Assembly (NCBI GenBank): GCA_016936175.1
Contig: JAFGPN010000015.1
Location: forward strand, 16,636 to 80,635
Length of the DNA stretch: 64,000 bases
Source: Patescibacteria group bacterium
GTDB lineage: Bacteria > Patescibacteriota > Kazan-3B-28 > UBA10110
Reading direction: 5' to 3'
The number at the start of each line of letters is the position of its first letter. The stretch's first letter is position 1. A program made the position numbers and the translations under genes. Below the pieces are notes generated by a model that was given only the letters and a program-made list of their open reading frames with translations, ran no database searches and was not told the DNA's origin. Positions 3 through 64,000 of this stretch are shown here, piece by piece.

Positions 3-908
3 TTCCAGCGTGTCCACATTGTCCGCGAGGTCTTGACTCGTGTCAGCATTCCGACTTTGGGAGAGTTCCAGGAGTTCATGGACACCAAGGTTCTTCTCTG
101 GCTACCCAAGCCGTCACGCTCGCCTAAACTGCCCAAGGGCAACTGGCAAGCAGAACGGCTGAAGATTCAACAGAAAGCCTGGGTCAAGGTCGGAATTGAT
201 TTGCCACAGGCTCTGTGCGACAAGTTCGTCGACATTCTGAACCAGTGTGGCGCAGAGTTGGTGGCTCAACTTGAGGCCTACGGCTTCATGTTTGTCATCA
301 CAGCGGATGTCACCTGGACTGCCAGCACTTGGCCAACAGGATGGGTTAAGCCCAACGACTGGTACTGGCAAGTGTTGAATGGCGGCAGGGTCATCGGCAG
401 TGATGATAAGCCCATTGAGGCCTGTCGGCTTCTGGGCCATATCCTGCTGATCGACACCCGACAGAAGCCCCGGTACGCCGGTGGCCATCAGCGTTGGAAG
501 GACGATGTGTTCATGGAGGCGCTCATCGGCTACTTGCAGGATCGCAAGCTCCTGCTAGTGAACGATAATGCTGGCCGTGGCAGTCGGTTCTACCTGAGCC
601 GTAACGATTATACCAACGTCGTAGCCCCGGCCTTTGTGGAAGCTCTCCAACAGCTCGGCGTTCCGGTTCAAACGGCTCGCCTCGAATACTGCCCGGAGCA
701 TTCTGCTCTCTGCCAGCTGTTCAACTCGCCCCGAAAGGATAATGGCAAGACGAACACTTGGCTGTGGTTCCAGGAGTACCTGGACTCGTCCGAGGGCTCG
801 CTGGGTGGCGGGGACTCCGACGACGGTGGTCTTGCGGACGTCGGCTACGACGACTCCGGCGGTCGCTGGGACTACGCATCTGGTTCGCTCGTGGCAGTTC
901 TGGCCTAG
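3..908 (+). CDS. DGR target protein, 5'-partial; C-terminal variable region likely in a C-type-lectin-like fold
   Basis: Frame 0 is open from the window edge to TAG at 906-908, so the in-window TTG at 33 is probably not the true start. The last ~40 codons are the VR copy of the TR/VR pair. The C-terminus is Gly/Asp/Ser-rich with an xRWxY motif. Confidence 0.7.
   Translation, partial: FQRVHIVREVLTRVSIPTLGEFQEFMDTKVLLWLPKPSRSPKLPKGNWQAERLKIQQKAWVKVGIDLPQALCDKFVDILNQCGAELVAQLEAYGFMFVITADVTWTASTWPTGWVKPNDWYWQVLNGGRVIGSDDKPIEACRLLGHILLIDTRQKPRYAGGHQRWKDDVFMEALIGYLQDRKLLLVNDNAGRGSRFYLSRNDYTNVVAPAFVEALQQLGVPVQTARLEYCPEHSALCQLFNSPRKDNGKTNTWLWFQEYLDSSEGSLGGGDSDDGGLADVGYDDSGGRWDYASGSLVAVLA
780..899 (+). 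repeat. DGR variable repeat (VR) at the 3' end of the target gene
   Basis: 120 bp matching 1200-1319 except at 15 positions. Every mismatch has A in the 1200-1319 copy and G (13 times), T or C (once each) here. Confidence 0.85.
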
Positions 909-943
909 GTATTGATCATTTGGTTTTCTCGGACTTTGGTCCC

Positions 944-975
944 GGCGGGGTTGCTTGCAACCCCGCCATTTTTGT
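944..975 (+). terminator. GC-rich hairpin plus T-run just downstream of VR and the target stop (terminator, possibly a DGR homing-associated hairpin)
   Basis: ggcggggttgc / gcaaccccgcc perfect inverted repeat followed by atttttg. Confidence 0.55.
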
Positions 976-1199
976 ATAGTTATTTTGATGCGATAGAGCA
1001 TAGATTACTACGGTAACTATCGTCGCTCTCCCTTTTGGGACAGCCAGAGTTTATAGCCTAGGTTGGTTATAGAGAGCGCTAAACCTAAACGGGAAACTGC
1101 GTGTCGACTACTAAGCTTCAATGGGTGAAGCAGATAAAATACAGGCAATCTATACGAGTTTGTTTGCCAGTGACTTTGGGTGGTAGGCGACATTAACGA

Positions 1200-1319
1200 C
1201 TGGACTCGTCCGAGAACTCGCTGAATGGCGGGAACTCCGACAACGGTGGTCTTACGAACGTCGGCTACAACAACTCCGGCAATCGCTGGAACAACGAATC
1301 TGGTTCGCTCGTGGCAGTT
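1200..1319 (+). repeat. DGR template repeat (TR)
   Basis: Non-coding copy of VR. It carries adenines at all 15 VR-variable positions. In the target frame it encodes 10 AAC/AAT (Asn) codons in 40 codons, the classic DGR TR signature. Confidence 0.85.
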
Positions 1320-1362
1320 TCTCGCGTTGGTTAATTAGGGGCGGGGGATCTACTCCCGCCCT

Positions 1363-1741
1363 TTAATTGTATTTCTTGATCCAACCACCAAGCATTTTGC
1401 CGATTTCCTGTAACTTACTCTGCAAAACTAAATAGGATTTTTCGTTCAAAGCCTGAACGTCATATCCCAACCGGATTTGCAACTTCACTAAGTCTAGTAG
1501 TCCACTGGCTCTAATCAGAACTTCCATTCTGCCTCGTTCGGGCGTAATAGGCGCTTGAAGAACACACTCAATTAACTCTAATAGCTTCATCTGGGTCATT
1601 TGACCCAAAGTATACTTCTCAACTTTAGGATATTTCAGAAGATGCCCATGAAACTGTTTGTAAAACTCGTACAGTCTCAGAATAATAGGGATTTCTCCAA
1701 AACCATGAGGGGGGGGGCTTAATAGGAAAGTTATTTTTCAT
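1363..1741 (-). CDS. avd: DGR accessory variability determinant (Avd), four-helix-bundle / 23S rRNA intervening-sequence protein family
   Basis: Translation contains YPKVEKYTLGQ and a C-terminal QEIGKMLGGWIK, both hallmarks of the Avd / four-helix-bundle family. The track ORF (TTG at 1608) is open upstream to 1737. The ATG at 1741-1739 is in frame only if the 9-G tract at 1709-1717 is 8 G, giving 125 aa, Avd-sized. Confidence 0.75.
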
Positions 1742-2794
1742 AATGGTGTTTTTGCGGAGATTATTTCGTTAGAGAACCTATTCTTAGCCTGGACAGAGTT
1801 TCGGAAAGGAAAGCGGAACAAGTCTGATGTCCAAGCATTCGAACTCCATCTCGAAGATAACATATTTGCTCTGCACGAGGAGCTGGCGGATGGCACCTAC
1901 CGCCATGGCGGGTACCAACAGTTTCGTATCTCCGACCCGAAGCCTCGCCTGATCAGCAAGGCATCCGTCCGTGACCGGCTACTCCATCACGCCGTCTACC
2001 GGATTTTATACCCGGCGTTTGATAAAACCTTCATCTTCGATAGCTACTCCTGTCGGAAGAGTAAGGGGACGCATCGGGGCTTCTTTAGGTTAGCAGAGAT
2101 GGCTCGGCAGGTTAGCAGAAACTACACTAGTCCCTGTTGGGCGTTGAAGTTAGATATTCGCAAGTTCTTCGATAGCGTGGATCATGGGGTGTTGATTGGA
2201 CTATTGCGAGAAAAGATGGCAGATACACAGTTGCTAGGATTGTTGGAGAATATTATTGGCAGTTTCCATACTTGTCATGCTGAATTTAGTTCAGCATCTA
2301 AGGTCCTGAAACAAGTTCAGGATGACAGAGTGAGTGGCAAAGGGATGCCACTTGGGAATTTGACTTCTCAATTGTTTGCTAATATCTATCTCGACCCCTT
2401 GGATAAGTTCGCGAAACATTACCTAAAGGCTATGTATTATTTGCGCTATGCCGACGATTTTATCTTTTTGTCGGATAACCTAGACGAACTGATGGGCTAC
2501 CTGGTGGAAGTTGCCCGATTCTTGAAGTCGAAGTTAAAGCTTCAGCTTCATCCCAATAAGCTTATCCTGAGAAAGTTAAAGTGGGGGATAGACTATGTTG
2601 GGTACGTCGCCCTGCCGCATTACAATCTGCCGAGGAGAAAAACTGTCAAACTGATTCTGCGGCAGATTGCCAGACGGAAAGATGCTGGCAATGAAGATGC
2701 ATTAGCCAAAGCCTTGTCCTCGTATCTGGGGTACTTACGGCATGTGGAGGCCCATAAGCTGACAAAACGCATAACTGATACCATAAAGGTATGA
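1709..2794 (+). CDS. DGR reverse transcriptase
   Basis: Open frame from 1709. The N-terminus ENLFLAWTEFRKGKRNK matches RT motif 0. GMPLGNLTSQLFANIYL is the DGR-specific motif 4 ending in SQ, and YLRYADDFIF is the YADD catalytic box. The track's first ATG at 2099 is internal. The ATG at 1705 comes into frame if the G-tract is 8 G. The stop overlaps the uvrC start (ATGA at 2791-2794). Confidence 0.85.
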   Translation, partial: GGGLNRKVIFHNGVFAEIISLENLFLAWTEFRKGKRNKSDVQAFELHLEDNIFALHEELADGTYRHGGYQQFRISDPKPRLISKASVRDRLLHHAVYRILYPAFDKTFIFDSYSCRKSKGTHRGFFRLAEMARQVSRNYTSPCWALKLDIRKFFDSVDHGVLIGLLREKMADTQLLGLLENIIGSFHTCHAEFSSASKVLKQVQDDRVSGKGMPLGNLTSQLFANIYLDPLDKFAKHYLKAMYYLRYADDFIFLSDNLDELMGYLVEVARFLKSKLKLQLHPNKLILRKLKWGIDYVGYVALPHYNLPRRKTVKLILRQIARRKDAGNEDALAKALSSYLGYLRHVEAHKLTKRITDTIKV

Positions 2795-4833
2795 GTAGAG
2801 CGTTTAAGCCAAATTTGCAGAAGATACCGGGAAGCCCCGGAGTGTATTTAATGTATGGAGGGAGATTGCCACGCTCCGCTCGCAATGACGATTCATTTGT
2901 TTCTGGGTCCCCGGGTCACGCCCGAGGACAAGAGGAAAAAGTAATTTATGTGGGAAAAGCACTCAATTTGCGCAAAAGGGTGTCTTCGTACTGGAAACAA
3001 CCGACTAAGCAGAGCACCAAGACGCAAGCGCTGATAAAGCAAGTAACAAGATTAGATTTCATCGCTACTGACACCGAAGCCGAGGCGCTGATATTGGAAA
3101 ACGAGTTAATTAAAAAATACCAGCCGCAATATAATGTGCTATTGCGGGATGACAAATCATTCCAATATATTCGGATTGGGTTAGATCAAAAATTTCCTGA
3201 GATAGCCTCTGTTCGTCGGGTAAACCCAGCGGATATTAAAAGTCGAGACCCTAATCGGCCAAGATACTTTGGCCCTTATACCGCCGGGGGAACAGTAAAA
3301 AATACTCTCAAGCTGTTAAATAGCATATTTCCGCTTTGCGGGAAGGCGCGAGAGTTGAATCAGCATTACGATTCTGGACATCCGCCCGGACAAAAGTCCC
3401 TTCGGACGGGAGCCAGAATGACGGGAGGGGGATTAAAGGCGCCGTGCCTTAACTATCACCTGGGGCGATGTTTGGGGGTGTGTGTCGGCAAGGCCACTGC
3501 ATCCGATTATCGCCATGCTATTAATGAGATAGTAAAGTTTTTGAATGGCGATACCAAAGATGTAATTAAATATCTGCAAATTCGGATGTCGAAGTTATCA
3601 AGCGAGAGGAGATTTGAAGAAGCGGCGCGGTTGAGGGACAGGATAAATTCGTTAGAGCAATTATTTGAACAACAAAAAGTATCTCGGCCAAAAGACCTGG
3701 AACAGGATTTCTTGGGCTGGTTGGTCGAAGGCGAAAAGATGATAGTCTCTCGCGCGCAGGTGCGCGGCGGAAGGCTATTGGGCCAGCAGATATTTGTGTT
3801 GCGCGCACCGTTAAATAATGTGGAGGCTAATCTAATGTCGCAGGCGATTATAACCATTTACGATAAGGTATTCGAAGATCTGCCACGAGAAATTATTGTG
3901 CCGGTGTTGCCAGAAGATGCTGGTGCGATTGAAAAGTGGCTGAGTGATAGGCGAGCCAACCCCACCCAACCTCCCCTTGGGAAGGGGAGGAGTGAAATTA
4001 ATCCCCTCCTTTCCAAGGAGGGGGAGGGGGTGGTTGGGAGGAGAGGAGGGGTTCGTATTTTAGTGCCACAAAAGGGACCTAATCAAAAATTATTATCATT
4101 AGCCCAGCGCAATGCCGCTCAACATTCCGGCTCTTTATTAGATGTCGATGAGCGTTTAGGTGTAAAAAAAGCAATAGTAGACCTAAAAAATCTGTTGAAA
4201 CTAAAAAAATTGGAGCGGCTGGAAGCCTACGATATCTCGCATCTGGGTGGCACCCACACCGTCGGCTCGATGGTGGTGTTTAAAGATGGTAAGCCAGACA
4301 AGAATGGTTATCGGAGATTTAGAATCAAAACTGTGCCCGGGATTGATGATTATGCGGCGTTAGGTGAAGTGATAACGAGAAGGTTGAGCCCTAAGCGCAG
4401 AGCAGATAAAAGATTCGCAGCCGGTTTGCCGGATGCGATATTAATTGATGGCGGCAAAGGTCAACTTAGTTCGGTGTTAAAACACGTTTCGGTGGATGAC
4501 AAAAAGAAGATTCGGTTTTTTAGTTTAGCCAAACGAGAAGAAGAGGTGTTTTTGCCAAACAGATCGGGAGCAGCAGTCCTGTCCAAAAGTTCGGTGGCGT
4601 TGCAGATGTTGCAAAGACTGCGAGACGAGGCGCATCGATTTGCTATTGGTTATCAAACTTCGCTCAAAACCAAACAGTTGGTAGGGGATACAGAAAAGAT
4701 GGTTGGTATCGGAGCCACCACCCGTAAGAAATTGGTGAAACAATTTGGCAGTCTTGCCACTGCCCGATGCGCCAGTGATAGCGAGCTTGCTCAAGTTTTG
4801 AGTCCCAAACAAATCCAATCTTTCCGATCATAA
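2791..4833 (+). CDS. uvrC: excinuclease ABC subunit C (UvrC), with three in-frame repeat-derived insertions
   Basis: GIY-YIG N-terminus (PGVYLMYGG...KVIYVGKALNLRKRVSSY), an LRDDKS motif and the UvrC C-terminal domains. It is 680 aa against about 610 typical. Confidence 0.9.
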   Translation: MSRAFKPNLQKIPGSPGVYLMYGGRLPRSARNDDSFVSGSPGHARGQEEKVIYVGKALNLRKRVSSYWKQPTKQSTKTQALIKQVTRLDFIATDTEAEALILENELIKKYQPQYNVLLRDDKSFQYIRIGLDQKFPEIASVRRVNPADIKSRDPNRPRYFGPYTAGGTVKNTLKLLNSIFPLCGKARELNQHYDSGHPPGQKSLRTGARMTGGGLKAPCLNYHLGRCLGVCVGKATASDYRHAINEIVKFLNGDTKDVIKYLQIRMSKLSSERRFEEAARLRDRINSLEQLFEQQKVSRPKDLEQDFLGWLVEGEKMIVSRAQVRGGRLLGQQIFVLRAPLNNVEANLMSQAIITIYDKVFEDLPREIIVPVLPEDAGAIEKWLSDRRANPTQPPLGKGRSEINPLLSKEGEGVVGRRGGVRILVPQKGPNQKLLSLAQRNAAQHSGSLLDVDERLGVKKAIVDLKNLLKLKKLERLEAYDISHLGGTHTVGSMVVFKDGKPDKNGYRRFRIKTVPGIDDYAALGEVITRRLSPKRRADKRFAAGLPDAILIDGGKGQLSSVLKHVSVDDKKKIRFFSLAKREEEVFLPNRSGAAVLSKSSVALQMLQRLRDEAHRFAIGYQTSLKTKQLVGDTEKMVGIGATTRKKLVKQFGSLATARCASDSELAQVLSPKQIQSFRS

Positions 4834-4837
4834 CCCT

Positions 4838-5045
4838 TGTCCCCGGGCGTGACCCGGGGACCCAGAAATAAACAAAAAGCCCTTTGTCATCCTGAACTTG
4901 CCTGCCCGTTTCGTAGCCTCGGGCGAAGGCAGGAATCCATTTTTCTGTCATCCTGAGCGGAGCGTTAGCATAGTCGAAGGATATAGTTCTGCTGTACGGT
5001 AGAACACTATCGCTAGATTCTTCACTACGTTCAGAATGACAAGAC
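4838..5045. repeat. cluster of four short hairpin repeats (GTCCCCGGG..CCCGGGGAC type and GTCATCCTGA..CAGGATGAC type)
   Basis: Inverted-repeat hairpins whose motifs recur elsewhere in the window at 2866-2937, 13449-13482, 15341-15394, 27421-27509 and 57546-57633. Confidence 0.7.
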
Positions 5046-6668: not shown

Positions 6669-9557
6669 ATGGAAGGCTTGGGCTCGCTCATCTTAATGGC
6701 GTTACTGGTGGTGGGGTGGCTGGCAGTAGCCGCTTTTTTGACGTGGTGGGTAATTAAAAAATTTGCCCAAAAAAAGGGTGAGGTTTCTACAACGCCAATC
6801 TTGACTACTTCGGAAGATGCGGTGTTGATAGCAATCGAAGTGCCAAAAGAAAACGAAAAGACTCCCTTAGCGGCCGAGACGATGTTTTCTAGTCTTCATG
6901 GCATTGGTAATCATCGGTTGAGTTTTGAAATTGAGGCTAAAGAGAAATCGGTTAGATTTTATGCTTGGGTCCCCACCAGCTTAAGAAACTATGTCGAGGG
7001 TCAGTTATACGCCCAATACCCAGACATGAACGTATTAGAAACAAAAGATTATTCGGATCCGACCCAGTTACCAGAGAACAGCGTGGGGGCTTCAACCGAG
7101 CTACTGTTTACGAAAAAGAATTTTTTCCCGATAAAAACGTTTATCAACTTTACCGTTGATCCACTGGCCGCTATTACCGGTATGTTGGGTAAATTGGGAG
7201 AGGATGAACATATCTGGATTCAATTAGTGATTAGTCCGGAGAGCAATCGGTGGCGAGACAGAGCGATGGCGTTTATCTCGGCGGTAAAATCTGGTCGTTC
7301 ACCCGAGATTGGCGCGGCCATTACCAAGAGTATATTTTCTCTAGCCGGGGATGTGGTTGGTTCTTTATCGCGTGGCGGTGGTTACGAGGCGAAAAAAGAA
7401 AACACTAAAGTAGAGCTATCTCCCGGCACCGACCTAATGCTAAAGGCTATTGAGGAAAAGAGCTCAAAGCTGGGCTTTAAAACCAAGATTCGATTGGTAG
7501 TGTGGGACAAGGATGAGGCGTCGGCTAAGGCCAAGCTTCAGTTAGCTTTAGGCACCTTTAAGCAGTTTGACACTACTAATTTAAACTCGTTTAAGGCTGG
7601 TAAATATGTTAATAATCGGGCAAATATTCTAACCACCTATAACCGACGGGAGTTGGGCAAGGACCCAACAATTCTTAATGTAACCGAGCTAGCCTCGATC
7701 TACCACTTACCCAATGTAAGCGTGGCGACTCCGAATATCGTTTGGGCTGGTTCGCGTAAGGGGGAACCGCCCGCCAACTTACCTTTGGTCGGTGAGGTAC
7801 CAGCGGAGGAGCTAACTACATTAGCCACCACTAACTTTCGGGGCACTCAAGAGAAGTTTGGAATTAAATTAAAAGATCGTCATCGCCATATCTACATCAT
7901 CGGTAAGAGCGGCACCGGTAAGTCAACTCTGCTTAATAATATGGCAGTTGATGATATTCGGGAACGGCGTGGGGTGGGGATTATCGACCCACATGGCGAC
8001 TATGTCGATACCGTTTTAAAGTACGTGCCAAACTATCGGGTAAACGATGTAATTTTATTTGATCCCGGCGATCGCGATTTTCCGATTGCGGTAAATATGT
8101 TAGAACTGCGTGACCCTAAGTATAAGGTAGTGGTGGCCTCCGGGGTGGTAGGTATCTTTAAAAAGATCTTTGGCTTTTCTTGGGGTCCCAGGCTTGAGTA
8201 CTGGCTGAGTTCGGCGGTAATGGCGTTGTTAGACTACCCCGATTCAACCTTAATGATGATTCCTGGATTATTTACCGACGCCGATTTTCGGGACAAGGTT
8301 ATCGCCAAGATATCTGACCCTCTAATTAAAAGACGGTGGATCTCCGAATATAACCAGCTCGATCAGAAACAACGTAACGAAACTATTTCGCCCATTTTAA
8401 ACAAGGTAGGCCAGTTCTTATCTTCGCCAGTGATTCGTAATATTGTTGGCCAGCCTCATTCCAGTATTGATTTTCGTAAGGTAATGGATGAGGGCAAGAT
8501 TCTGTTAGTAAAATTAGCCAAGGGTATTATCGGCGAGGATAACGCCGCCTTGATGGGCGCCATGATTATCACTCAGTTGCAGTTAGCCGCAATGTCTCGG
8601 GCCGATGTGGTCGAAGCAGGGCGCAAAGATTTTTATCTGTATGTGGACGAGTTTCAGAACTTTGCCACCGAATCGTTTCAGGCAATTCTATCTGAGGCTC
8701 GTAAGTATCACTTATCTCTCACTCTGGCTAACCAGTATATGGATCAGTTAATCCCCGAAGTAAGCGACGCCATCTTTGGTAACGTTAATACCATCATTGC
8801 CTTCCGGGTTGGCGGGGATGACGCTAAACAGTTGGAGAAAGAATTTGCCCCAATATTCGAAGCTAATGATTTGGTCAATTTAAATATGTTTAACATCTAC
8901 ATCAAGCTGTCAATCGATAATATTACCACTAACGCCTTCTCAGCCCAGACTCTGCCGTATCCGGATGATTTTAACCATAACGAAGAAAAGATTATCAAAG
9001 CTTCTCGTGAGCGCTATTCTCGTCCAGCCAGTTTTGTAGAAGAGAGGATAGATAAGGCCCTGGCTATTCCGGAGCCACCGCCTCGACCCGCTCCCCTGGC
9101 CGCGTCCCGCGACCGCGGGCAGGCTCGGACGGGTCAACCGAGATGGGAGAGGCCAACCGGACGGAGCCAAGCGCAGATGGGTCAGTCGCGGCGACCACAG
9201 GGCGATCAGGATTTTCAAAGGCCTCAACCACCAAAAAGGAGTCTGCCTGATCGACCAGTGCCGTTTCGGCCGGCGATGAAGGTGGAACCTCCCAAGCAGG
9301 TTTCCCCTGCGCCACAACCTAAACGTAAACCGGACGATTCTTTGCTAAAAAAGGTGATATCGGCGATGGAGAAGCAGAGGCCGTGGGTGCCTGGTCAGAA
9401 GCCAGCTAAACCCAATCCGGTTGCCGATCTCAATTCAGATAAAAAATCGATTGAGGATATTAGAAGGCAGAAATCGGATGAAGCGCAAAACAAGCCTAAC
9501 GAATCAATCCTGCTTGATGAAGACAGGGGTGAGATCAATCTATCAAATGACAAGTAG
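6669..9557 (+). CDS. membrane-anchored DUF87 / TraD-VirD4-like (type IV coupling protein-like) P-loop ATPase with a disordered Pro/Arg/Gln-rich C-terminal tail
   Basis: N-terminal TM helix, Walker A IIGKSGTGKST, Walker B YLYVDEFQNF, and a conserved GDY/HxxxD region. It has a paralog at 17243-19681. Confidence 0.7.
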   Translation: MEGLGSLILMALLVVGWLAVAAFLTWWVIKKFAQKKGEVSTTPILTTSEDAVLIAIEVPKENEKTPLAAETMFSSLHGIGNHRLSFEIEAKEKSVRFYAWVPTSLRNYVEGQLYAQYPDMNVLETKDYSDPTQLPENSVGASTELLFTKKNFFPIKTFINFTVDPLAAITGMLGKLGEDEHIWIQLVISPESNRWRDRAMAFISAVKSGRSPEIGAAITKSIFSLAGDVVGSLSRGGGYEAKKENTKVELSPGTDLMLKAIEEKSSKLGFKTKIRLVVWDKDEASAKAKLQLALGTFKQFDTTNLNSFKAGKYVNNRANILTTYNRRELGKDPTILNVTELASIYHLPNVSVATPNIVWAGSRKGEPPANLPLVGEVPAEELTTLATTNFRGTQEKFGIKLKDRHRHIYIIGKSGTGKSTLLNNMAVDDIRERRGVGIIDPHGDYVDTVLKYVPNYRVNDVILFDPGDRDFPIAVNMLELRDPKYKVVVASGVVGIFKKIFGFSWGPRLEYWLSSAVMALLDYPDSTLMMIPGLFTDADFRDKVIAKISDPLIKRRWISEYNQLDQKQRNETISPILNKVGQFLSSPVIRNIVGQPHSSIDFRKVMDEGKILLVKLAKGIIGEDNAALMGAMIITQLQLAAMSRADVVEAGRKDFYLYVDEFQNFATESFQAILSEARKYHLSLTLANQYMDQLIPEVSDAIFGNVNTIIAFRVGGDDAKQLEKEFAPIFEANDLVNLNMFNIYIKLSIDNITTNAFSAQTLPYPDDFNHNEEKIIKASRERYSRPASFVEERIDKALAIPEPPPRPAPLAASRDRGQARTGQPRWERPTGRSQAQMGQSRRPQGDQDFQRPQPPKRSLPDRPVPFRPAMKVEPPKQVSPAPQPKRKPDDSLLKKVISAMEKQRPWVPGQKPAKPNPVADLNSDKKSIEDIRRQKSDEAQNKPNESILLDEDRGEINLSNDK
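9086..9118. repeat. 33-nt GC-rich hairpin element, inverted copy of 11588-11620, embedded in-frame in the ATPase C-terminal tail
   Basis: cccctggccgcgtcccgcgaccgcgggcaggct is the exact reverse complement of 11588-11620. Confidence 0.8.
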
Positions 9558-9574: not shown

Positions 9575-11584
<2,010 letters not shown>

Positions 11585-11587
11585 CCT

Positions 11588-11636
11588 GCCCGCGGTCGCG
11601 GGACGCGGCCAGGGGGGCTGGATCAGGTTTTTTTAT
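11588..11636 (+). terminator. rho-independent terminator of ligA (GC hairpin plus T7 run)
   Basis: cccgcggtcgcggg palindrome within a 33-nt element, followed by tttttttatgg. Confidence 0.6.
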
Positions 11637-15340: not shown

Positions 15341-15394
15341 GTCATCCTGAATTCATTTCAGGATCTAGATTCTGAAACAAGTTCAGAATGACAG
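15341..15394. repeat. two-hairpin dispersed repeat (GTCATCCTGAA..TTCAGGATC + TCTGAAACAAGTTCAGAATGAC)
   Basis: Related copies at 2277-2327 (inside the RT gene), 57783-57834, 27421-27509 and 36389-36473. Confidence 0.7.
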
Positions 15395-27386: not shown

Positions 27387-27535
27387 AGAATTACAAATTA
27401 AAAATTATAAAGGTTGATGTGTCATTCTGAGCAAAGCGTCCTTGGGGCCTGGATCCTGAATAAGTTATTTATAGTAGGCCTACGGCAGTAAAGTGTTTTC
27501 AGGATGACAAGGGGTGCGGGGATGACGCGGGAGCG

Positions 27536-32111: not shown

Positions 32112-32210
32112 CTTATCCTCCCTTGGGTTAGGATATGACGATTTGATTATACCACATCTCCTGTTATGATGGGTCGTTGGGGGATAGCAAATCGACCGCT
32201 AACCCCTGGT

Positions 32211-32245
32211 GCCGATTAGGAGTGCGATCGCATTTCTAATCGGCA
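32211..32245. repeat. inverted-repeat element TGCCGATTAG-N-GCGATCGC-N-CTAATCGGCA (copy 1 of 3)
   Basis: Other copies at 37367-37402 and 43256-43292. All are intergenic and just upstream of gene starts. Confidence 0.7.
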
Positions 32246-32307
32246 AGTGGTTTGACAATCAGTAATGTATTCTCGAGAATCTACCCTACGGGGAAGGAGG
32301 AAATGCA

Positions 32308-36388: not shown

Positions 36389-36533
36389 CGTCATCCTGGC
36401 TTGTCCAGGATCGTATAAATCTATCTTACGATTCTGGAGTCTTCTGCTATTGCAGCAGAATCCCCAGAATGACGAGAAAGTAATAATTTAAATAAAAAAT
36501 CGAGGCCCGTAATTGGGCCTCGGTCGTTTGATG

Positions 36534-37366: not shown

Positions 37367-37402
37367 TGCCGATTAGAAATGCGATCGCACTTTAAATCGG
37401 CA
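37367..37402. repeat. inverted-repeat element with a GCGATCGC core (copy 2)
   Basis: tgccgattagaaatgcgatcgcactttaaatcggca. Confidence 0.7.
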
Positions 37403-37478
37403 GACTAACAAATAACGGGATGCGCCCTAAAGGTTCGTCAAACAGGTATTCGATGATTGTTGATTATCCGCGAGGCGC

Positions 37479-40330: not shown

Positions 40331-40424
40331 AAATCAATTGTTGTCATTGCGAGCGTAGCGAAGCAATCTCTGAGATTGCCGCGTCGTCCCGACTTTAGTC
40401 GGGACTCCTCGCCATAACCGGTTG

Positions 40425-43255: not shown

Positions 43256-43292
43256 TGCCGACCTGGAGTGCGATCGCACTCCTAATCGGCAA
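43256..43292. repeat. inverted-repeat element with a GCGATCGC core (copy 3)
   Basis: ttgccgacctggagtgcgatcgcactcctaatcggcaa. Confidence 0.65.
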
Positions 43293-43303
43293 GGGTAAAT
43301 AAG

Positions 43304-54338: not shown

Positions 54339-54524
54339 GTCATTCCGGGCTTGACCCGGAATCCATCCTACGCTCTATGAGCTACGGAGGACTGGCGTAA
54401 GTTATTTATTATAGGCCTACGGCAGTAAAGTGTTTTCCCTGGCCGCGACCGGCTACGGGCAGGCAGGATGACATGAGAGGAGATTGCTTCGTCGCTTCGC
54501 TCCTCGCAATGACGAGTTAGGGGG
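54339..54524. repeat. composite of GTCAT-type hairpin repeats (includes a 40-nt segment shared with 27463-27500)
   Basis: gtcattccgggcttgacccggaatcc, then aagttatttattataggcctacggcagtaaagtgtttt, then gcaggatgacat, then gcttcgtcgcttcgctcctcgcaatgac. Confidence 0.65.
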
Positions 54525-57517: not shown

Positions 57518-58039
57518 AACTCTACACTCCTTTTTGTCATTCCTGCGTAGGCAGGAATCCATTTTATTGCTTCTGCCTGGATCCCCGATGTCGACGCGCT
57601 AACGCCGTCGGCTCTGGGATGACATTTTAATTTATTAATAAAAATACCTCTCACGAAAAGAGGTTTAGTAAAAACACAAAGTTTCCCCTAACTCTTCACT
57701 CGGAGTTGGTTCACCCCGTTAGAAATAATAATTTCTAATCGGGGTTGCTACGAATAACGTTGGCGACCTGGCTTACTATCTTGTCATGCTGAACTAGTTT
57801 CAGCATCTAGATCCTGAAATAAATTCAGGATGACGATAGTTTACAGTTGCGGGACAGCGCCGGACTCCCCGCCCATTTCATGATTCGGGCAGGCCACCGG
57901 ACTTCGCAGTCGTTACTCGGGTTAGTATTCAAGGTAGGCTCATTATACACCTCTAACCAAACAGGCAAATAAAAAAGCGGCAACCCTGCTCTGTCTAGCA
58001 GAGATCGCCGCTCATTTCCATTCTGGTTAACCAAAATGA

Positions 58040-60832: not shown

Positions 60833-63800
60833 TTATTCTTCGAACTCACTTTGCTTGCGACGGTAAGTGAATGAGGTGGCCAGTAAACTAACTAAGGCCG
60901 CCAAGCTCATCACGATAAAGGTCGGGGTACCAGCGGCTGGTAGTTGTTCTCCACCGACCGCTTCGTTAACCGGCTCATTGAGCGCTAATGCCGGATTAGT
61001 CTGTTGTTCACCACCAACCTCTTCGTTACTGCCAGTAGGAGGAGTGTAGTATCCCCCACCGCCACCTCCGCCGCCGCCAGTGGGGCCGCCGGGTTCACCC
61101 TGAGTTTCTGGCCCACCGGGTTGCCAGTTACCAAAGTCGATATCCACCCAATCCCATTCACCTTCGCCGTCACCGACGGGTAGGCTGTAAGCCACAGGCG
61201 CGCCGGTTATATCGTGCGGGAAGGTTTGACTCCAGGTGCTTTGTGGTACTTCGCGGACAACATAGGTATCGGCGGGCAGTCCAGCGAAATTATAGGAACC
61301 GTCTCCTTCTGTTTCGTAGAATGGCTCTTGAACATCTAAGTCGCCGTCGTTATTCAAGTCCAGGTAAATCGTCCAGCCGGATAGGCCTCCGTCTTCGCTA
61401 TCTTTTTCGCCATTGCCGTTGTGATCGTGGAATTTGATACCGGCGATAGAACCGGTTGGTTCGGGCTCATCTTCCTCTTCGATTGAGCGGTTACCAAAGT
61501 CTAACCCATCGGTCAAACCGTCGGCCGAAGCTTCGTGATAACCTTCGGGCATCGGGTAGGTTTGCACCCAACCATCTTGGGTTTCTTCTGCCACCACTAC
61601 GTCACCGGTAATTTCGGCAGGAATCTCTAACTCGTAGTTGCCATCGGAGTCGGTAATGGCAGTATCTATTACATTGTAGATCTTAACGTTTAACGAGCCA
61701 GAGTTGTTGTAGGCATAGATGTCGTGAATGTGGAATTCGTAGGTCATTCCATCGCCCACCAATGTGTGCCAATAGACGTGGCTCGGGTTGTAAGAACCCC
61801 AAAGACTAAAGTTGTTGCGAATCCAGAGATCGAGCAACTTAACGCCATATCCGCCGTAACCGTGTACATCGTCAGTCCAGGCATCTGGGTCCGGGGCAAA
61901 CGACCGCTTAGAATATTGAGCATCAGCGGTAATGCCGTCACCTGCTTCGAATGTGCCTTCTGCGCGAATAATATACTTTTGTCCGCTCTCTAAAACCTTA
62001 TTAGTAAAGAACGAAGCGCCGTCTTCGGCATCGTTTTGAGCCTCTACATCCAACTCGTCATACAGTTGCCCGGCGTAGATGGTCCAGCCTGCGAGGCCTT
62101 CATCACCTTCGTCTTTGTCGCCCATACCGTCGTGGTCGTTAAACTTCATGCCAGTAATTGTGCCCGGAATGTCTTCGCCGTGGTTACCAAAATCTAGACC
62201 GGTCAATTCGCTTTGACCAATAACAACATCGTAGTAGACGGTTTGCGGGAAGGTTTGTGTCCAAGTGCGCTGGGGAATCTCAAACACTAATACGTGCCCA
62301 ACATCTATAGGGATAGTAAGCTCGTAGTCACCATTAACATCGGTGGTACCCACGTCTACCACGCGGTAGATCGTTACAGTTAGCTCACCGTTGTTATCGC
62401 CATACCAGCCAGGGTTTTTGATTGGAGGATTACCATCAAAGACAGAGAAATTAATGGGACCATCCTCGGCTAACTCGTAGTTGAGATAGTAGATATGTTC
62501 TCCGCTATATGGGCCCCAATCGACAAACGCATCATCAACCATTAGATCAGCTTGATCTGCGCCTAAATCATTTCCGTCCGTGTGAGTATTCCATCCATCA
62601 CTGGTGAAGTACTCGGCATCGCGAAGATTACCATCCCCGGGCTTATTAATGTTGTTATCCCACTGTCCCTCAACAATTAGCAAGTAATCGTCATCCGGTA
62701 ACACATCGGAATCAGCACCAGTCATCTCGTCTGAAGGCACGATAACAACATCCACTGGTTCGGGATCAACCGCTTTAATAACCCAACCTTCGAGTCCTTC
62801 GTCACCTTCGTCTTTATCGCCCATACCATCGTGGTCGTTAAATTTCATGCCGGTGATAGTAGTTTCAGAGGAAACGTTAAATGCGACTGCGTAGTAAGTT
62901 TGGCCCACTTCAATTCCTTCGATCCGATCGTAGTTATCGTAGTTAAGTACATCGGTAGTGGCATAAACCTCAGCCGAGAACTCGTCATCTGCGGTCGGGA
63001 CATTTGAGCCGTTAGAGAGCCAACCACTAAACGGGATATATCCTTCTTGCGGTATCTCACGGAACCAAAGATAGTTGCTGTTACCGATATCTCCAGCTGT
63101 GAGGGTAATAGTTGTTTCCCCGTTTGCATCGGTGGCTGGAAGGGTGTGCCAACTACCAGCTTCGCCAGTATTGTCGCCGGGGTTTGAGGTGCCTTCTGGC
63201 GCCCACTGGAACTGCCAATCCGGGACTAACCTACAACCCTGATGGCTATCAACAAAATCTTGGGCAGTATTTCCATCGATGCCGCCCGCCGGATAACCTT
63301 CTCCATCACCATCGCCCCAGTTGGGGAGAAGATCTTCGGAATCACAGACGATCTTACTGGCAATAATGGTTACCTTTGGCTCTTCTGGCACCGGACAGGC
63401 GGCGTTGTACGGCAGAACTTGTAATCCTTGGTCTTCGAAGGCAAAACTCATCCACGACTGGACGGTGTGCCGTTCGGCAAAGAAGACATCGACGATGTGA
63501 GTGCCGACGGTCAGATGCATAGAGCCATCATTCTCAGTTGGCTGATGAATGCCCGAATTATCTTTTACTAATCCGCCGTTGAGATAAACCCAAGCATCGT
63601 CATCTGATTTCAGAGTAAAGTCGTAATCCCCTTCTGTGCTAATGGTGACTTTGCCGCTCCAGTGAATACCGAAGTGGTAATTGTGACCCGATCCCACAGG
63701 ATCCGTGCCCAACCCGTCTAACGGGAAGAAGTTATCTCCAAAATTAAGATCGGGGTCAACTTGGGATTGGACAAGATATTGGGAATCGTACCAATCGGTA

Positions 63801-64000
63801 TCCCAAGTGCCACTCAATGGATCACCATGGCTGTCGTCCGGCCATTCATTCTGAGGCAGATTCATATCCAGATGAGTAGCGTCGTAGTTGTAGTACTGAC
63901 CAAACCAGCCAGTTTGGTCACCGAAGTCACACTCATCTTCTTCCTCTTCTAAAACATTAAATCCAACGGCGTAGTAGGTATGGCCCGGTTGGATTCCATC
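60833..64000 (-). CDS. very large cell-surface protein (N-terminus beyond the window): PA14-like domain, repeated SdrD-B-like domains, C-terminal LPAAG sortase-type sorting signal
   Basis: The frame stays open to the window edge. GDYDFTLKSDDDAWVYLNGGLV is PA14-like. FNDHDGMGDKDEGDEGL.GW and FHDHNGNGEKDSEDGGLSGWTIYL are SdrD-B-like. The C-terminus is LPAAGTP + TFIVMSLAALVSLLATSF + YRRKQ. Confidence 0.75.
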   Translation of the reverse strand, partial: DGIQPGHTYYAVGFNVLEEEEDECDFGDQTGWFGQYYNYDATHLDMNLPQNEWPDDSHGDPLSGTWDTDWYDSQYLVQSQVDPDLNFGDNFFPLDGLGTDPVGSGHNYHFGIHWSGKVTISTEGDYDFTLKSDDDAWVYLNGGLVKDNSGIHQPTENDGSMHLTVGTHIVDVFFAERHTVQSWMSFAFEDQGLQVLPYNAACPVPEEPKVTIIASKIVCDSEDLLPNWGDGDGEGYPAGGIDGNTAQDFVDSHQGCRLVPDWQFQWAPEGTSNPGDNTGEAGSWHTLPATDANGETTITLTAGDIGNSNYLWFREIPQEGYIPFSGWLSNGSNVPTADDEFSAEVYATTDVLNYDNYDRIEGIEVGQTYYAVAFNVSSETTITGMKFNDHDGMGDKDEGDEGLEGWVIKAVDPEPVDVVIVPSDEMTGADSDVLPDDDYLLIVEGQWDNNINKPGDGNLRDAEYFTSDGWNTHTDGNDLGADQADLMVDDAFVDWGPYSGEHIYYLNYELAEDGPINFSVFDGNPPIKNPGWYGDNNGELTVTIYRVVDVGTTDVNGDYELTIPIDVGHVLVFEIPQRTWTQTFPQTVYYDVVIGQSELTGLDFGNHGEDIPGTITGMKFNDHDGMGDKDEGDEGLAGWTIYAGQLYDELDVEAQNDAEDGASFFTNKVLESGQKYIIRAEGTFEAGDGITADAQYSKRSFAPDPDAWTDDVHGYGGYGVKLLDLWIRNNFSLWGSYNPSHVYWHTLVGDGMTYEFHIHDIYAYNNSGSLNVKIYNVIDTAITDSDGNYELEIPAEITGDVVVAEETQDGWVQTYPMPEGYHEASADGLTDGLDFGNRSIEEEDEPEPTGSIAGIKFHDHNGNGEKDSEDGGLSGWTIYLDLNNDGDLDVQEPFYETEGDGSYNFAGLPADTYVVREVPQSTWSQTFPHDITGAPVAYSLPVGDGEGEWDWVDIDFGNWQPGGPETQGEPGGPTGGGGGGGGGYYTPPTGSNEEVGGEQQTNPALALNEPVNEAVGGEQLPAAGTPTFIVMSLAALVSLLATSFTYRRKQSEFEE

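What the first reader, a model, noticed from the sequence alone, without database searches (positions are those of the whole stretch)
2866..4060. uvrC carries three in-frame insertions built from the genome's palindromic repeat families
Relative to canonical UvrC there are three extra segments. (1) 2866-2937 sits inside the GIY-YIG hairpin (GG[RLPRSARNDDSFVSGSPGHARGQEE]KVIYVGKA). Its DNA is the reverse complement of a GTCATTGCGAGCG-type repeat plus a GTCCCCGGGTCACGCCCGAGGAC copy of the 4842 palindrome. (2) About 3376-3435 contains cgattctgg...ccagaatgacg, the same hairpin as 36426-36473. (3) About 3950-4060 is a CCTCCCCTTGGGAAGGGGAGG-type palindrome encoding PTQPPLGKGRSEINPLLSKEGEGVVGRRGG. All three keep the reading frame, analogous to Rickettsia palindromic elements colonising ORFs.
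Basis: partly seen in the sequence, partly recalled or inferred. Interest (0 to 1): 0.55.

Follow-up and report, generated by a model that had tools for sequence, protein, structure and literature searches.

The report
Palindromic repeats inserted in-frame in uvrC
The DNA-repair gene uvrC of an uncultured Patescibacteria (CPR) bacterium carries three short in-frame insertions of selfish hairpin repeats that are translated as floppy surface loops; this is already known from Rickettsia and other bacteria, and is seen here in a new lineage and at the same protein loops in relatives.

Summary
uvrC (2791-4833, 680 aa) has three extra in-frame, stop-free segments: about 2862-2933, 3361-3432 and 3955-4050. 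They are absent from a 610-aa relative (L006). AlphaFold2 predicts all three as low-confidence loops.

Insert 1 is one composite unit. It joins a GTCCCCGGG hairpin, a spacer and a CGTC-tagged REP, in reverse orientation. One half is 95% identical to the intergenic copy at 4836-4872; the other is 89% identical to 40343-40370.

Insert 2 is a CGTC-tagged REP. It shares only its tag, outer stem and tail with 36431-36473.

Insert 3 has no other copy in the window. It is two nested triplex-motif (PIT/BoxC-like) units. The same family sits at other uvrC sites in a relative and in at least 120 stretches of genomes from many phyla.

The core gene is under strong purifying selection (dN/dS about 0.05). 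The Rickettsia analogy is supported. CGTC REPs include RPE-4 and RPE-6, and REPs inside UvrABCD genes were described in 2013. This is a new member of a known kind.

Two extras are modestly interesting. The same two UvrC loops hold different elements across CPR lineages. The insert DNA is also more conserved than the synonymous sites around it.

The parts
2791..4833 (+). uvrC coding sequence (680 aa) that hosts the three inserts
   Evidence: ORF list. Pfam GIY-YIG, UVR, UvrC_RNaseH and UvrC_RNaseH_dom. 100% match to an NCBI Patescibacteria UvrC. Core dN/dS about 0.05.
2862..2933 (-). Insert 1, about 24 codons in the loop of the GIY-YIG beta-hairpin. It is one composite repeat in reverse orientation: module A (GTCCCCGGG-type hairpin, 2900-2929), a 10-nt A/T-rich spacer (2890-2899), and module B (CGTC-tagged REP, 2862-2889).
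   Evidence: Inverted repeats I4 and I11. BLAST E 1.6e-11 and 1e-3. The A-spacer-B layout is shared with 4836-4945 and L005 818-895. pLDDT is below 50 at residues 26-47, between strands 17-23 and 50-57.
3361..3432 (-). Insert 2, about 21 extra codons between the first and second cysteines of the Cys-rich (FeS) motif. It is a CGTC-tagged REP at 3371-3422. Read on the minus strand it is CGTC-ATTCTGG, a 35-nt loop, then CCAGAAT-CGT.
   Evidence: The Cys spacing is C183-X35-C219, against X14 in L006 and a published consensus of CX6-14C (PMC10085695). pLDDT is below 50 at 195-234.
3955..4050 (+). Insert 3, about 29 extra codons between the RNase H1-like and RNase H2 domains. It is two nested triplex-motif (PIT/BoxC-like) units. 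The outer unit is AACCCCACC-CAA-CCTCCCCTT-GGG-AAGGGGAGG, closed further on by GGAGGGGTT. The inner unit at 4003-4035 is CCCCTCCTT-TCC-AAGGAGGGG-GAG-GGGGTGGTT.
   Evidence: Sequence. Y-shaped fold, z = -2.5. Relatives L008, L002 and L005 carry homologous versions of different complexity. Family hits appear in other genes and phyla. pLDDT is below 50 at 396-418.
4836..5041 (+). Intergenic cluster of the same repeat modules directly after the uvrC stop codon. It holds the closest copy (4836-4872) of insert 1's module A, followed by several CGTC/TGTC-tagged modules.
40343..40370 (+). Intergenic copy of the GTCATTGCGAGCG-type REP, the counterpart of insert 1's module B.
   Evidence: I11.
36431..36473 (-). 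Intergenic CGTC-tagged REP with the same tag, stem (ATTCTGG) and tail (CGT) as insert 2 but a different 26-nt interior.
2271..2328 (+). The same phenomenon in the neighbouring gene: a head-to-head dimer of TGTC-tagged REPs lies in frame in the reverse-transcriptase ORF 2099-2794 and encodes the peptide TCHAEFSSASKVLKQVQDDR.
   Evidence: Families D6 and D8. Self-BLAST against 15341-15394 and 57780-57834. Only 1 of the 6 frames is open, and it is the one used.
9087..9125 (+). The same phenomenon: a GC-rich palindrome lies in frame in ORF 6669-9557 (DUF8128/TraG-like ATPase) and encodes [13 protein letters not shown]. Its intergenic twin is at 11583-11621.
   Evidence: I2. The ortholog in L006 carries the same family (LAASRDSGQA) at a different position.

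Best explanation
These are copies of small, non-autonomous palindromic repeat elements that landed inside uvrC and survived. Two are REPs of the CGTC-tagged superfamily and one is a PIT/BoxC-like triplex-motif element.

They survived because they are a multiple of three bases long, are stop-free in the frame used, and sit in structurally permissive loops. Those loops are the tip of the GIY-YIG beta-hairpin, the variable spacer between Cys1 and Cys2 of the FeS motif (which protrudes from the enzyme), and the linker after the RNase H1-like domain.

The inserts are transcribed and translated as disordered loops rich in Pro, Gly, Arg and Ser, and UvrC stays functional.

The same loops hold different elements in different relatives. 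The likely reasons are that these are the few permissive positions, and that an existing repeat attracts further insertions, nesting or replacement.

Shown here: the inserts, their repeat ancestry, the empty site, frame conservation, predicted loop location and purifying selection on the host gene. Inferred: translation, neutrality, and the mechanism of mobility, which is unknown (no dedicated transposase is known for CGTC REPs).
For: - **Lineage-specific inserts.** An empty-site ortholog exists.
- **Similarity to intergenic copies.** The DNA matches are far beyond chance.
- **Family enriched and mostly intergenic.** There are 15 GTCAT-type hits against 1.8 expected, and 13 perfect-stem modules against 1.3 in shuffles. 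Most lie in the 15% of the window that is non-coding.
- **Fit to the published REP definition.** All 13 modules have a CGTC or TGTC tag, a 7-8 bp stem starting with AT, and a CCA, CTA or CGT tail. Nine of 13 have 4-5 nt loops (against PMC3733652).
- **Frame conservation.** About 11 inserts at three sites in five relatives are all in frame and stop-free. The repeats themselves are not intrinsically open in six frames, so this points to a selective filter.
- **Loop location.** The three AlphaFold2 segments with pLDDT below 50 coincide with the inserts, flanked by confident core elements. PDB GIY-YIG matches resume immediately after insert 1.
- **Host gene under selection.** Core dN/dS is about 0.05 with saturated synonymous sites. 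All domains are 76-93% identical in protein, and the invariant C-terminal nuclease columns are kept.
- **Reproducible across assemblies.** The insert-bearing P0002 is encoded identically in three independent assemblies.
- **Precedent.** Intragenic REPs in UvrABCD, RecBCD and PolA genes, and RPE-4/RPE-6 as CGTC REPs, are published (PMC3733652). RPE in-frame insertion is reviewed in PMC10969869.
- **Triplex-type element in real genes elsewhere.** It lies inside HrpA, RecG, UvrB, a histidine kinase, a portal protein and others in other phyla.
Against: - No expression or proteomic data exist, so translation and activity of the insert-bearing UvrC are inferred.
- No target-site duplication or transposase was identified, so 'insertion by transposition' is not demonstrated.
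- Insert 3 has no second copy in the window.
- The insert DNA is more conserved than neighbouring synonymous sites. Between the window and L008, insert 3 is 91% identical against 76% overall and 49% at third positions in the core, and all 9 differences fall in loops or the spacer. A purely neutral, passively decaying passenger would not show this. Some DNA-level force is also acting: gene conversion from other copies, recent re-insertion, or selection on structure.
Confidence: 0.8

Rival explanations
1. The elements are kept inside uvrC because they work at the DNA or RNA level. Hairpin or triplex structures in the coding sequence would modulate transcription, mRNA stability or translation of uvrC. 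Alternatively they would make the locus recombination-prone or mutable, tuning nucleotide excision repair (the mutator idea of Di Nocera et al.).
For: Stems and flanks of insert 3 are 100% identical between the window and L008, while third codon positions of the surrounding gene are only 49% identical. The REP ends of the site-1 insert shared by L001 and L002 also look conserved by eye, with differences concentrated in the interior (not quantified). The same two loops of UvrC are hit repeatedly in distant CPR lineages. The triplex-type copies sampled in other phyla include UvrB, RecG and HrpA. The literature notes an excess of REPs in repair genes and genomic instability around triplex motifs.
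Against: Different relatives carry unrelated elements, or none, at the same sites (L006 has none), so no particular structure is required. Coding copies fold less well than intergenic ones (insert 1 z = -0.5 against about -4). Sequence conservation can equally come from gene conversion or recent acquisition. The sample of ten genes is not a statistical test of enrichment.
Confidence: 0.12
2. The encoded peptides are adaptive additions to UvrC, for example new interaction or regulatory loops, rather than tolerated passengers.
For: The inserts persist in a gene under strong purifying selection. Insert 3 is shared, in modified form, by four relatives.
Against: Peptide sequences at one site are unrelated between close relatives. 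Within insert 3, dN/dS is about 1.4 (window vs L008) and 0.4 (vs L002), against about 0.05 in the core. The segments are predicted to be disordered. The same DNA elements encode different peptides in different frames and genes.
Confidence: 0.04
3. The inserts are not part of the protein. They would be removed from the mRNA or skipped by the ribosome, as with the hairpin 'byp' bypass elements of yeast mitochondria or T4 gene 60. Alternatively, the gene is a decaying pseudogene or an assembly artefact.
For: The inserts are hairpin-forming. The automatic JGI gene call in L001 started after insert 1.
Against: If the segments were removed or bypassed, nothing would keep them in frame and stop-free, yet all of about 11 inserts at three sites in five relatives are. 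Core dN/dS of about 0.05 and conserved catalytic motifs argue against a pseudogene. Independent assemblies give the same sequences, and L008 from another sample carries the same insert 3 with 9 substitutions.
Confidence: 0.03

Closest known systems
CGTC-tagged REPs (Di Nocera, De Gregorio & Rocco 2013, PMC3733652), a superfamily that includes Rickettsia RPE-4/RPE-6 and Neisseria dRS3
   Same: The elements have an unpaired 5' CGTC or TGTC tag, a stem that begins with AT, short loops and a 3-nt tail. Head-to-head dimers occur. Most copies lie just downstream of ORFs. Some copies sit in frame inside genes, notably nucleotide-excision and recombination repair genes.
   Different: The host is a Patescibacteria (CPR) bacterium, a group not among the phyla surveyed in 2013. 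Stems are 7-8 bp rather than 8-9 bp. Four of 13 copies, including insert 2, have loops expanded to 26-37 nt. Insert 1's module B has only a 5-bp stem, and module A pairs the GTC itself. The main text of the paper speaks of UvrABCD and excinuclease ABC proteins but names only uvrA and uvrB individually.
Rickettsia palindromic elements (RPE; Ogata et al. 2000, 2002, as reviewed in PMC10969869)
   Same: These are palindromic selfish DNA inserted in frame in unrelated housekeeping genes. They are translated as extra peptide segments at positions compatible with the fold.
   Different: RPE-1 is about 100-150 bp and specific to Rickettsia. The units here are about 25-100 bp and modular. Their families are shared across phyla, and different families alternate at the same host-protein loop.
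Potential intrastrand triplex (PIT) / BoxC / TMECO motifs (Hoyne et al. 2000; Holder et al. 2015, PMC4666352)
   Same: The architecture has three blocks of 9-3-9-3-9: a C-rich stem, a loop, a complementary G-rich stem, a 3-nt loop and a mirror-repeat G-rich block. Units pair in inverted configuration. Stems are extremely conserved while loops vary. No link to a transposase is known.
   Different: The sequence differs: CCTCCCCTT/AAGGGGAGG/GGTGGGGTT rather than CCCTCNCCC/GGGNGAGGG. In E. coli MG1655 TMECO is always intergenic. Here the copies in the window and its relatives are all inside genes, and 41 of 131 copies in other phyla lie inside long open frames.
[quoted passage not shown]
   Same: They are small, non-autonomous and repeated, and can create in-frame fusions.
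   Different: No terminal inverted repeats distinct from the hairpin itself, no target-site duplication and no cognate IS were identified here.

Membership tests
CGTC-tagged REP superfamily | Unpaired 5' tetranucleotide tag CGTC (often TGTC or CCTC) | tested here: met
   All 13 perfect-stem modules in the window carry CGTC (6) or TGTC (7), including insert 2 (CGTC). Insert 1's module B reads ATCGTCATTGCG on the minus strand.
CGTC-tagged REP superfamily | Stem of 8-9 bp whose first two pairs are A-T | tested here: met
   All 13 stems begin with AT. Ten are 8 bp and three are 7 bp. Insert 2 has ATTCTGG (7 bp). Insert 1's module B has only ATTGC (5 bp), like its intergenic twin at 40343.
CGTC-tagged REP superfamily | Loop of 4-5 nt | tested here: inconclusive
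   Nine of 13 modules have loops of 4-5 nt. Four, including insert 2 (35 nt), have loops of 26-37 nt that form their own hairpins. Module B of insert 1 has a 12-nt loop.
CGTC-tagged REP superfamily | Short 3' tail, consensus CCA | tested here: inconclusive
   The tails are CCA (4), CTA (6) and CGT (3). They are similar to the published consensus but not identical.
CGTC-tagged REP superfamily | Head-to-head dimers predominate; location mostly intergenic and downstream of ORFs | tested here: met
   Dimers occur at 15341/15369, 57783/57811, 36390/36431 and 2274/2301. Most copies lie in the 15% non-coding fraction.
CGTC-tagged REP superfamily | No dedicated transposase (RAYT) associated | not tested
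   The window's ORFs were not all annotated, and the rest of the genome is not available.
Rickettsia palindromic elements (RPE) | In-frame insertion into unrelated protein-coding genes at positions compatible with the fold | tested here: met
   Inserts occur in uvrC (three sites), the reverse-transcriptase ORF and the TraG-like ORF. The AlphaFold2 low-confidence loops coincide with the uvrC inserts.
Rickettsia palindromic elements (RPE) | Sequence homology to the named RPE-1 to RPE-10 families of Rickettsia | not tested
   No Rickettsia sequence was compared. The link rests on the published assignment of RPE-4 and RPE-6 to the CGTC families.
PIT / BoxC / TM intrastrand-triplex motif | Three consecutive blocks: C-rich stem (about 9 nt), loop of 3-6 nt, complementary G-rich stem, loop of about 3 nt, and a second G-rich block that mirrors the first | tested here: met
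   4003-4035 reads CCCCTCCTT-TCC-AAGGAGGGG-GAG-GGGGTGGTT. L005 site 3 reads CCTCCCCTT-GGT-AAGGGGAGG-AGA-GGAGGGGTT. Read on the opposite strand, the pattern used has this same architecture. In addition, 23 of 131 copies carry the mirror block on the 3' side, against a control rate of 0.4%.
PIT / BoxC / TM intrastrand-triplex motif | TMECO consensus CCCTCNCCC-N3-6-GGGNGAGGG-N3-GGGNGAGGG | tested here: not met
   The block sequences differ (CCTCCCCTT / AAGGGGAGG). The architecture is the same but this is a different sequence family.
PIT / BoxC / TM intrastrand-triplex motif | Formation of an intramolecular triplex by the single strand (CD or NMR) | not testable with these tools
   Only Watson-Crick folding could be computed.
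MITE | Terminal inverted repeats plus target-site duplication | tested here: inconclusive
   Filled sites were compared with the empty site in L006. No consistent duplication could be defined because the flanks are G-rich and diverged.
Translational-bypass or excised coding-gap elements (T4 gene 60, mitochondrial byps) | The insert need not preserve the frame and usually carries stops, because it is not translated | tested here: not met
   All inserts at three sites in five relatives are multiples of three bases and stop-free in the host frame. The reverse-transcriptase insert uses the only open frame of six.

The most novel reading that the evidence does not exclude
The repeats may be more than tolerated passengers and may be actively maintained at the DNA level inside repair genes. 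Two observations point that way. REP and triplex-type elements repeatedly occupy the same two or three loops of UvrC across distant CPR lineages, and the triplex-type element also sits in UvrB, RecG and HrpA in other phyla. Their stems also stay identical while the surrounding synonymous sites are saturated.

This would mean either site-directed insertion with concerted evolution of intragenic copies, or a structure-dependent function. Candidate functions are tuning of nucleotide excision repair, whose machinery processes hairpin and triplex DNA, or an internal Shine-Dalgarno-plus-GTG start in insert 3 that yields a separate C-terminal nuclease.
Probability: 0.12. Interest if true: 0.6.

Novelty: new member of a known kind. 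Interest (0 to 1): 0.35.

Why it matters
It extends the RPE/REP-in-genes phenomenon to the Candidate Phyla Radiation. Those genomes are small and streamlined, so selfish DNA inside essential genes is less expected there.

It has a practical effect on annotation. One automatic gene call for a relative's uvrC was truncated at such an insert. Length variation among CPR orthologs (601-780 aa) also comes largely from these elements.

It maps three permissive loops of UvrC, including the Cys1-Cys2 spacer of the FeS motif.

The comparison across relatives is a small natural experiment. Different repeat families alternate at the same protein loops, and the repeat DNA evolves more slowly than the host gene's silent sites. 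That bears on the open question of how REP and triplex-type repeats spread and stay homogeneous without a known transposase.

Tried and rejected
- **Peptide search, no result.** phmmer of the 32-aa insert-3 peptide against 1.84 billion representative proteins gave 0 hits at E <= 0.001. The query is too short and low in complexity.
- The search for homologous proteins rejected the 25-aa insert-1 peptide because the minimum is 40 aa.
- **Rfam.** Nothing but two tRNAs reached the gathering threshold in the window. At the E-value threshold, only sub-threshold chance matches to miRNA and DUF1874 hairpins fell on insert 3.
- **The window's own contig.** It could not be retrieved for a wider census because P0001 is not on record.
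- **Literature search with raw sequence strings.** It returned only eukaryotic noise.
- **Are the repeats intrinsically ORF-friendly?** I tested whether they are open in all six frames. They are not different from shuffles, and several intergenic copies have no open frame at all. The idea is rejected; a selection filter explains the frame conservation.
- **Target-site duplications.** I compared filled sites with the empty site and found no consistent duplication.
- **Does the adjacent reverse transcriptase mobilise the repeats?** Rejected. It belongs to a diversity-generating retroelement with its own TR/VR pair, and it is itself a host of a repeat.
- **Assembly artefact or pseudogene.** Rejected.
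Full report
**What is there**

The window comes from a Patescibacteria (CPR) bacterium. The ORF 2791-4833 (+) translates to a 680-aa protein identical to an NCBI 'Patescibacteria group bacterium' UvrC. It carries the GIY-YIG, UVR, RNase H-like and UvrC RNase H endonuclease domains.

I aligned it with 17 homologues and at codon level with five close relatives fetched as DNA: L001, L002, L005, L006 and L008.

| Insert | Residues | Nucleotides |
|---|---|---|
| 1 | 25-49 | 2863-2937 |
| 2 | 191-214 | 3361-3432 |
| 3 | 389-420 | 3955-4050 |

The relative L006 (P0005, 610 aa, 79% identical over aligned residues) has none of the three and serves as the empty-site reference.

**Repeat ancestry**

*Insert 1.* Positions 2896-2932 are the reverse complement of the intergenic 4836-4872, which lies directly after the uvrC stop codon (37 nt, 95%, BLAST E 1.6e-11). 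Positions 2862-2889 are the reverse complement of 40343-40370 (28 nt, 89%, E 1e-3). The two halves are not independent. The same order recurs intergenically at 4836-4945 and in relative L005 at 818-895: a GTCCCCGGG hairpin, an A/T-rich spacer, then a GTCAT-type hairpin. Insert 1 is therefore one composite unit in reverse orientation.

*Insert 2.* Read on the minus strand it is CGTC-ATTCTGG, a 35-nt interior, then CCAGAAT-CGT. It shares its tag, stem and tail with the intergenic element at 36431-36473, but the interiors are unrelated.

*Insert 3.* It has no second copy in the 64-kb window. Its family appears at site 1 and site 2 of uvrC in L005, at site 3 in L008, L002 and L005, and in the DNA ligase gene of L006. 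The hosts include Deltaproteobacteria, Nitrospirota, Cyanobacteria, Planctomycetota, Gammaproteobacteria, Bacteroidota and several CPR groups. Chance expectation for that pattern in 596 Gb is far below one (my estimate).

**Which known families these are**

The GTCAT-type modules are enriched in the window: 15 motif hits against 1.8 expected, and 13 perfect-stem modules against 1.3 in shuffles. All 13 have:

- a CGTC or TGTC tag;
- a 7-8 bp stem beginning with AT;
- a tail of CCA, CTA or CGT.

Nine of the 13 have 4-5 nt loops, and several form head-to-head dimers. This is the published definition of CGTC-tagged REPs (PMC3733652). That superfamily includes Rickettsia RPE-4 and RPE-6.

[quoted passage not shown] Insert 3 has the three-block 9-3-9-3-9 architecture of potential intrastrand-triplex motifs (PIT/BoxC/TMECO; PMC4666352). 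The inner unit at 4003-4035 reads CCCCTCCTT-TCC-AAGGAGGGG-GAG-GGGGTGGTT. It is nested inside an outer unit whose simple form is seen in L005: CCTCCCCTT-GGT-AAGGGGAGG-AGA-GGAGGGGTT. The block sequence differs from the E. coli TMECO consensus, so this is the same architecture in a different sequence family.

Rfam has no family for either element.

**Where the inserts fall in the protein, and whether the gene is alive**

An AlphaFold2 model built on the alignment (mean pLDDT 73) has pLDDT below 50 at residues 26-47, 195-234 and 396-418. Those segments coincide with the inserts.

- Insert 1 lies between strands 17-23 (GVYLM) and 50-57 (VIYVGKA), at the tip of the GIY-YIG hairpin. PDB GIY-YIG domains align only from residue 47-51 onward.
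- Insert 2 lies between the first two cysteines of the Cys-rich FeS motif. The spacing is C183-X35-C219-X3-H-X3-C-X3-C, against X14 in L006 and a published consensus of CX6-14C. The motif is described as protruding from the enzyme (PMC10085695).
- Insert 3 follows the RNase H1-like domain.

The core of the gene is under strong purifying selection. dN is 0.08-0.15, synonymous sites are saturated, and dN/dS is about 0.05 where it can be computed. Every domain is 76-93% identical in protein, and the invariant C-terminal nuclease columns are retained. P0002, a relative with larger inserts, is encoded identically in three independent assemblies. This excludes an assembly artefact or a pseudogene.

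**Frame conservation reflects a filter, not a design**

At the three sites in five relatives, roughly eleven inserts are all multiples of three bases and stop-free. The elements themselves are no more open in six frames than shuffled versions, and several intergenic copies have no open frame at all. The REP dimer inside the neighbouring reverse-transcriptase ORF uses the only open frame of six.

Most copies lie in the 15% of the window that is non-coding. The simplest reading is selfish repeats plus purifying selection. It also argues against removal at the RNA level or ribosomal bypass, neither of which would impose a frame.

**Hot spots**

Site 1 holds unrelated elements in different close relatives:

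| Sequence | Element at site 1 |
|---|---|
| Window | Reverse-oriented composite REP |
| L001 and L002 | Forward head-to-head REP dimer with nested material |
| L005 | Triplex-type unit |
| L006 | Nothing |

The JGI gene call for L001 missed the first 57 codons because of its insert.

More distant CPR UvrCs (36-38% identical) also have site-1 inserts. P0033 (candidate division Kazan) begins RLPRSAR, like the window. P0026 encodes HAEFISASKILKRVQDD, nearly the same peptide as the REP dimer in this window's reverse-transcriptase ORF. Site 2 carries inserts in 13 of 117 UvrC homologues examined, several of them recognisably REP- or triplex-derived. Site 3 is confined to the window's clade.

I interpret these as the few permissive loops. 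Existing repeats probably also act as landing pads, given the nested and composite structures at the sites. That last point is inference.

**An unexplained extra**

The insert DNA is more conserved than the gene around it. The table compares the window with L008.

| Region | Nucleotide identity |
|---|---|
| Core, all positions | 76% |
| Core, third codon positions | 49% |
| Insert 3 | 91% |

All nine differences in insert 3 fall in the two loops and the spacer; stems and flanks are identical. The window-versus-L002 comparison of insert 3 shows the same pattern. The REP ends of the site-1 insert shared by L001 and L002 also look conserved by eye (not quantified).

Gene conversion from other copies, recent re-insertion or selection on structure could each explain this. 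I could not discriminate between them.

**Breadth**

In a crude test, 41 of 131 triplex-type copies in other phyla lie well inside long open frames. Ten of the longest were checked and are real genes, including HrpA, RecG and UvrB helicases, a nitrogenase-like oxidoreductase, a histidine kinase and a phage portal protein.

The canonical CGTC REP GTCATTCCCGCGNAGGCGGGAATC occurs in at least 120 IMG/VR viral or proviral contigs. The triplex-type pattern occurs in three.

**Verdict**

This is a CPR example of in-frame REP/RPE-type insertions into a repair gene, which is a known kind of event. Insert 3 belongs to a second known class, the triplex motifs, previously described as intergenic. Interest is moderate to low, and it rests on the recurrent use of the same loops and the DNA-level conservation of the inserts.

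Noticed in passing
window 33-2794 (VR 780-899, TR 1200-1319, RT ORF 2099-2794): A diversity-generating retroelement lies directly upstream of uvrC. Two 120-nt repeats are 88% identical, and all 15 mismatches are A in the 1200-1319 copy against G, T or C in the 780-899 copy, which forms the 3' end of ORF 33-908. A reverse-transcriptase ORF (RVT_1, YADD motif) follows, and its stop overlaps the uvrC start (ATGA). Relatives have uvrA upstream of uvrC instead.
   Followed up: partly
window 2271-2328; P0026 (distant CPR UvrC): The reverse-transcriptase ORF carries an in-frame head-to-head REP dimer encoding HAEFSSASKVLKQVQDD. Nearly the same peptide (HAEFISASKILKRVQDD) sits in the GIY-YIG hairpin loop of a UvrC only 38% identical to this one.
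   Followed up: partly
window 9087-9125 and 11583-11621; L006 ortholog of ORF 6669-9557: A third palindrome family (CTGGCCGCGTCCCGCGACCGCGGGCAGG, peptide LAASRD-GQA) lies in frame in the TraG-like ATPase. Its twin lies just after the DNA ligase gene. The L006 ortholog has the same family at a different position in the protein.
   Followed up: partly
window 32210-32247, 37367-37404, 43256-43293: A separate intergenic palindromic family, TGCCGATTAG-N-GCGATCGC-N-CTAATCGGCA, is centred on GCGATCGC, the HIP1 octamer known from cyanobacteria. All three copies lie between genes on the minus strand.
   Followed up: no
L001 9830-10000: The public (JGI) gene call for this relative's uvrC starts at an internal Met after its site-1 insert. 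It omits the first 57 codons, which carry the GIY strand and the insert itself. The full ORF is intact and in frame. Repeat inserts can therefore mislead automatic start-site calls.
   Followed up: yes
window 4015-4032: The inner unit of insert 3 contains a perfect Shine-Dalgarno-like AAGGAGG 8 nt upstream of an in-frame GTG (4030). That position is just before the RNase H2 and HhH half of UvrC. An internal start is conceivable but untested, and the SD-like sequence would be paired in the hairpin.
   Followed up: no
window 3955-4053 versus L008 297-395 and L002: The insert DNA is 91-92% identical between relatives whose core uvrC is 76-78% identical, with third codon positions about 50% identical. 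All differences lie in loops or the spacer.
   Followed up: partly
window 27461-27500 and 54398-54437: A 40-nt sequence (TAAGTTATTTAT-N-TAGGCCTACGGCAGTAAAGTGTTTTC, 95% identical between the copies) occurs twice. At 27461 it lies inside the expanded loop of a CGTC-type REP. This suggests that loops are themselves insertion targets.
   Followed up: no
The triplex-type pattern is present in three. I did not check whether these lie in phage DNA proper or in host flanks.
   Followed up: no
window 61373-62860 (ORF 60833-63865, minus strand): Three 78-nt segments spaced about 700 nt apart (65-87% identical) lie inside a 1010-aa ORF. This is probably a repeated protein domain and is unrelated to the palindromic families.
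   Followed up: no
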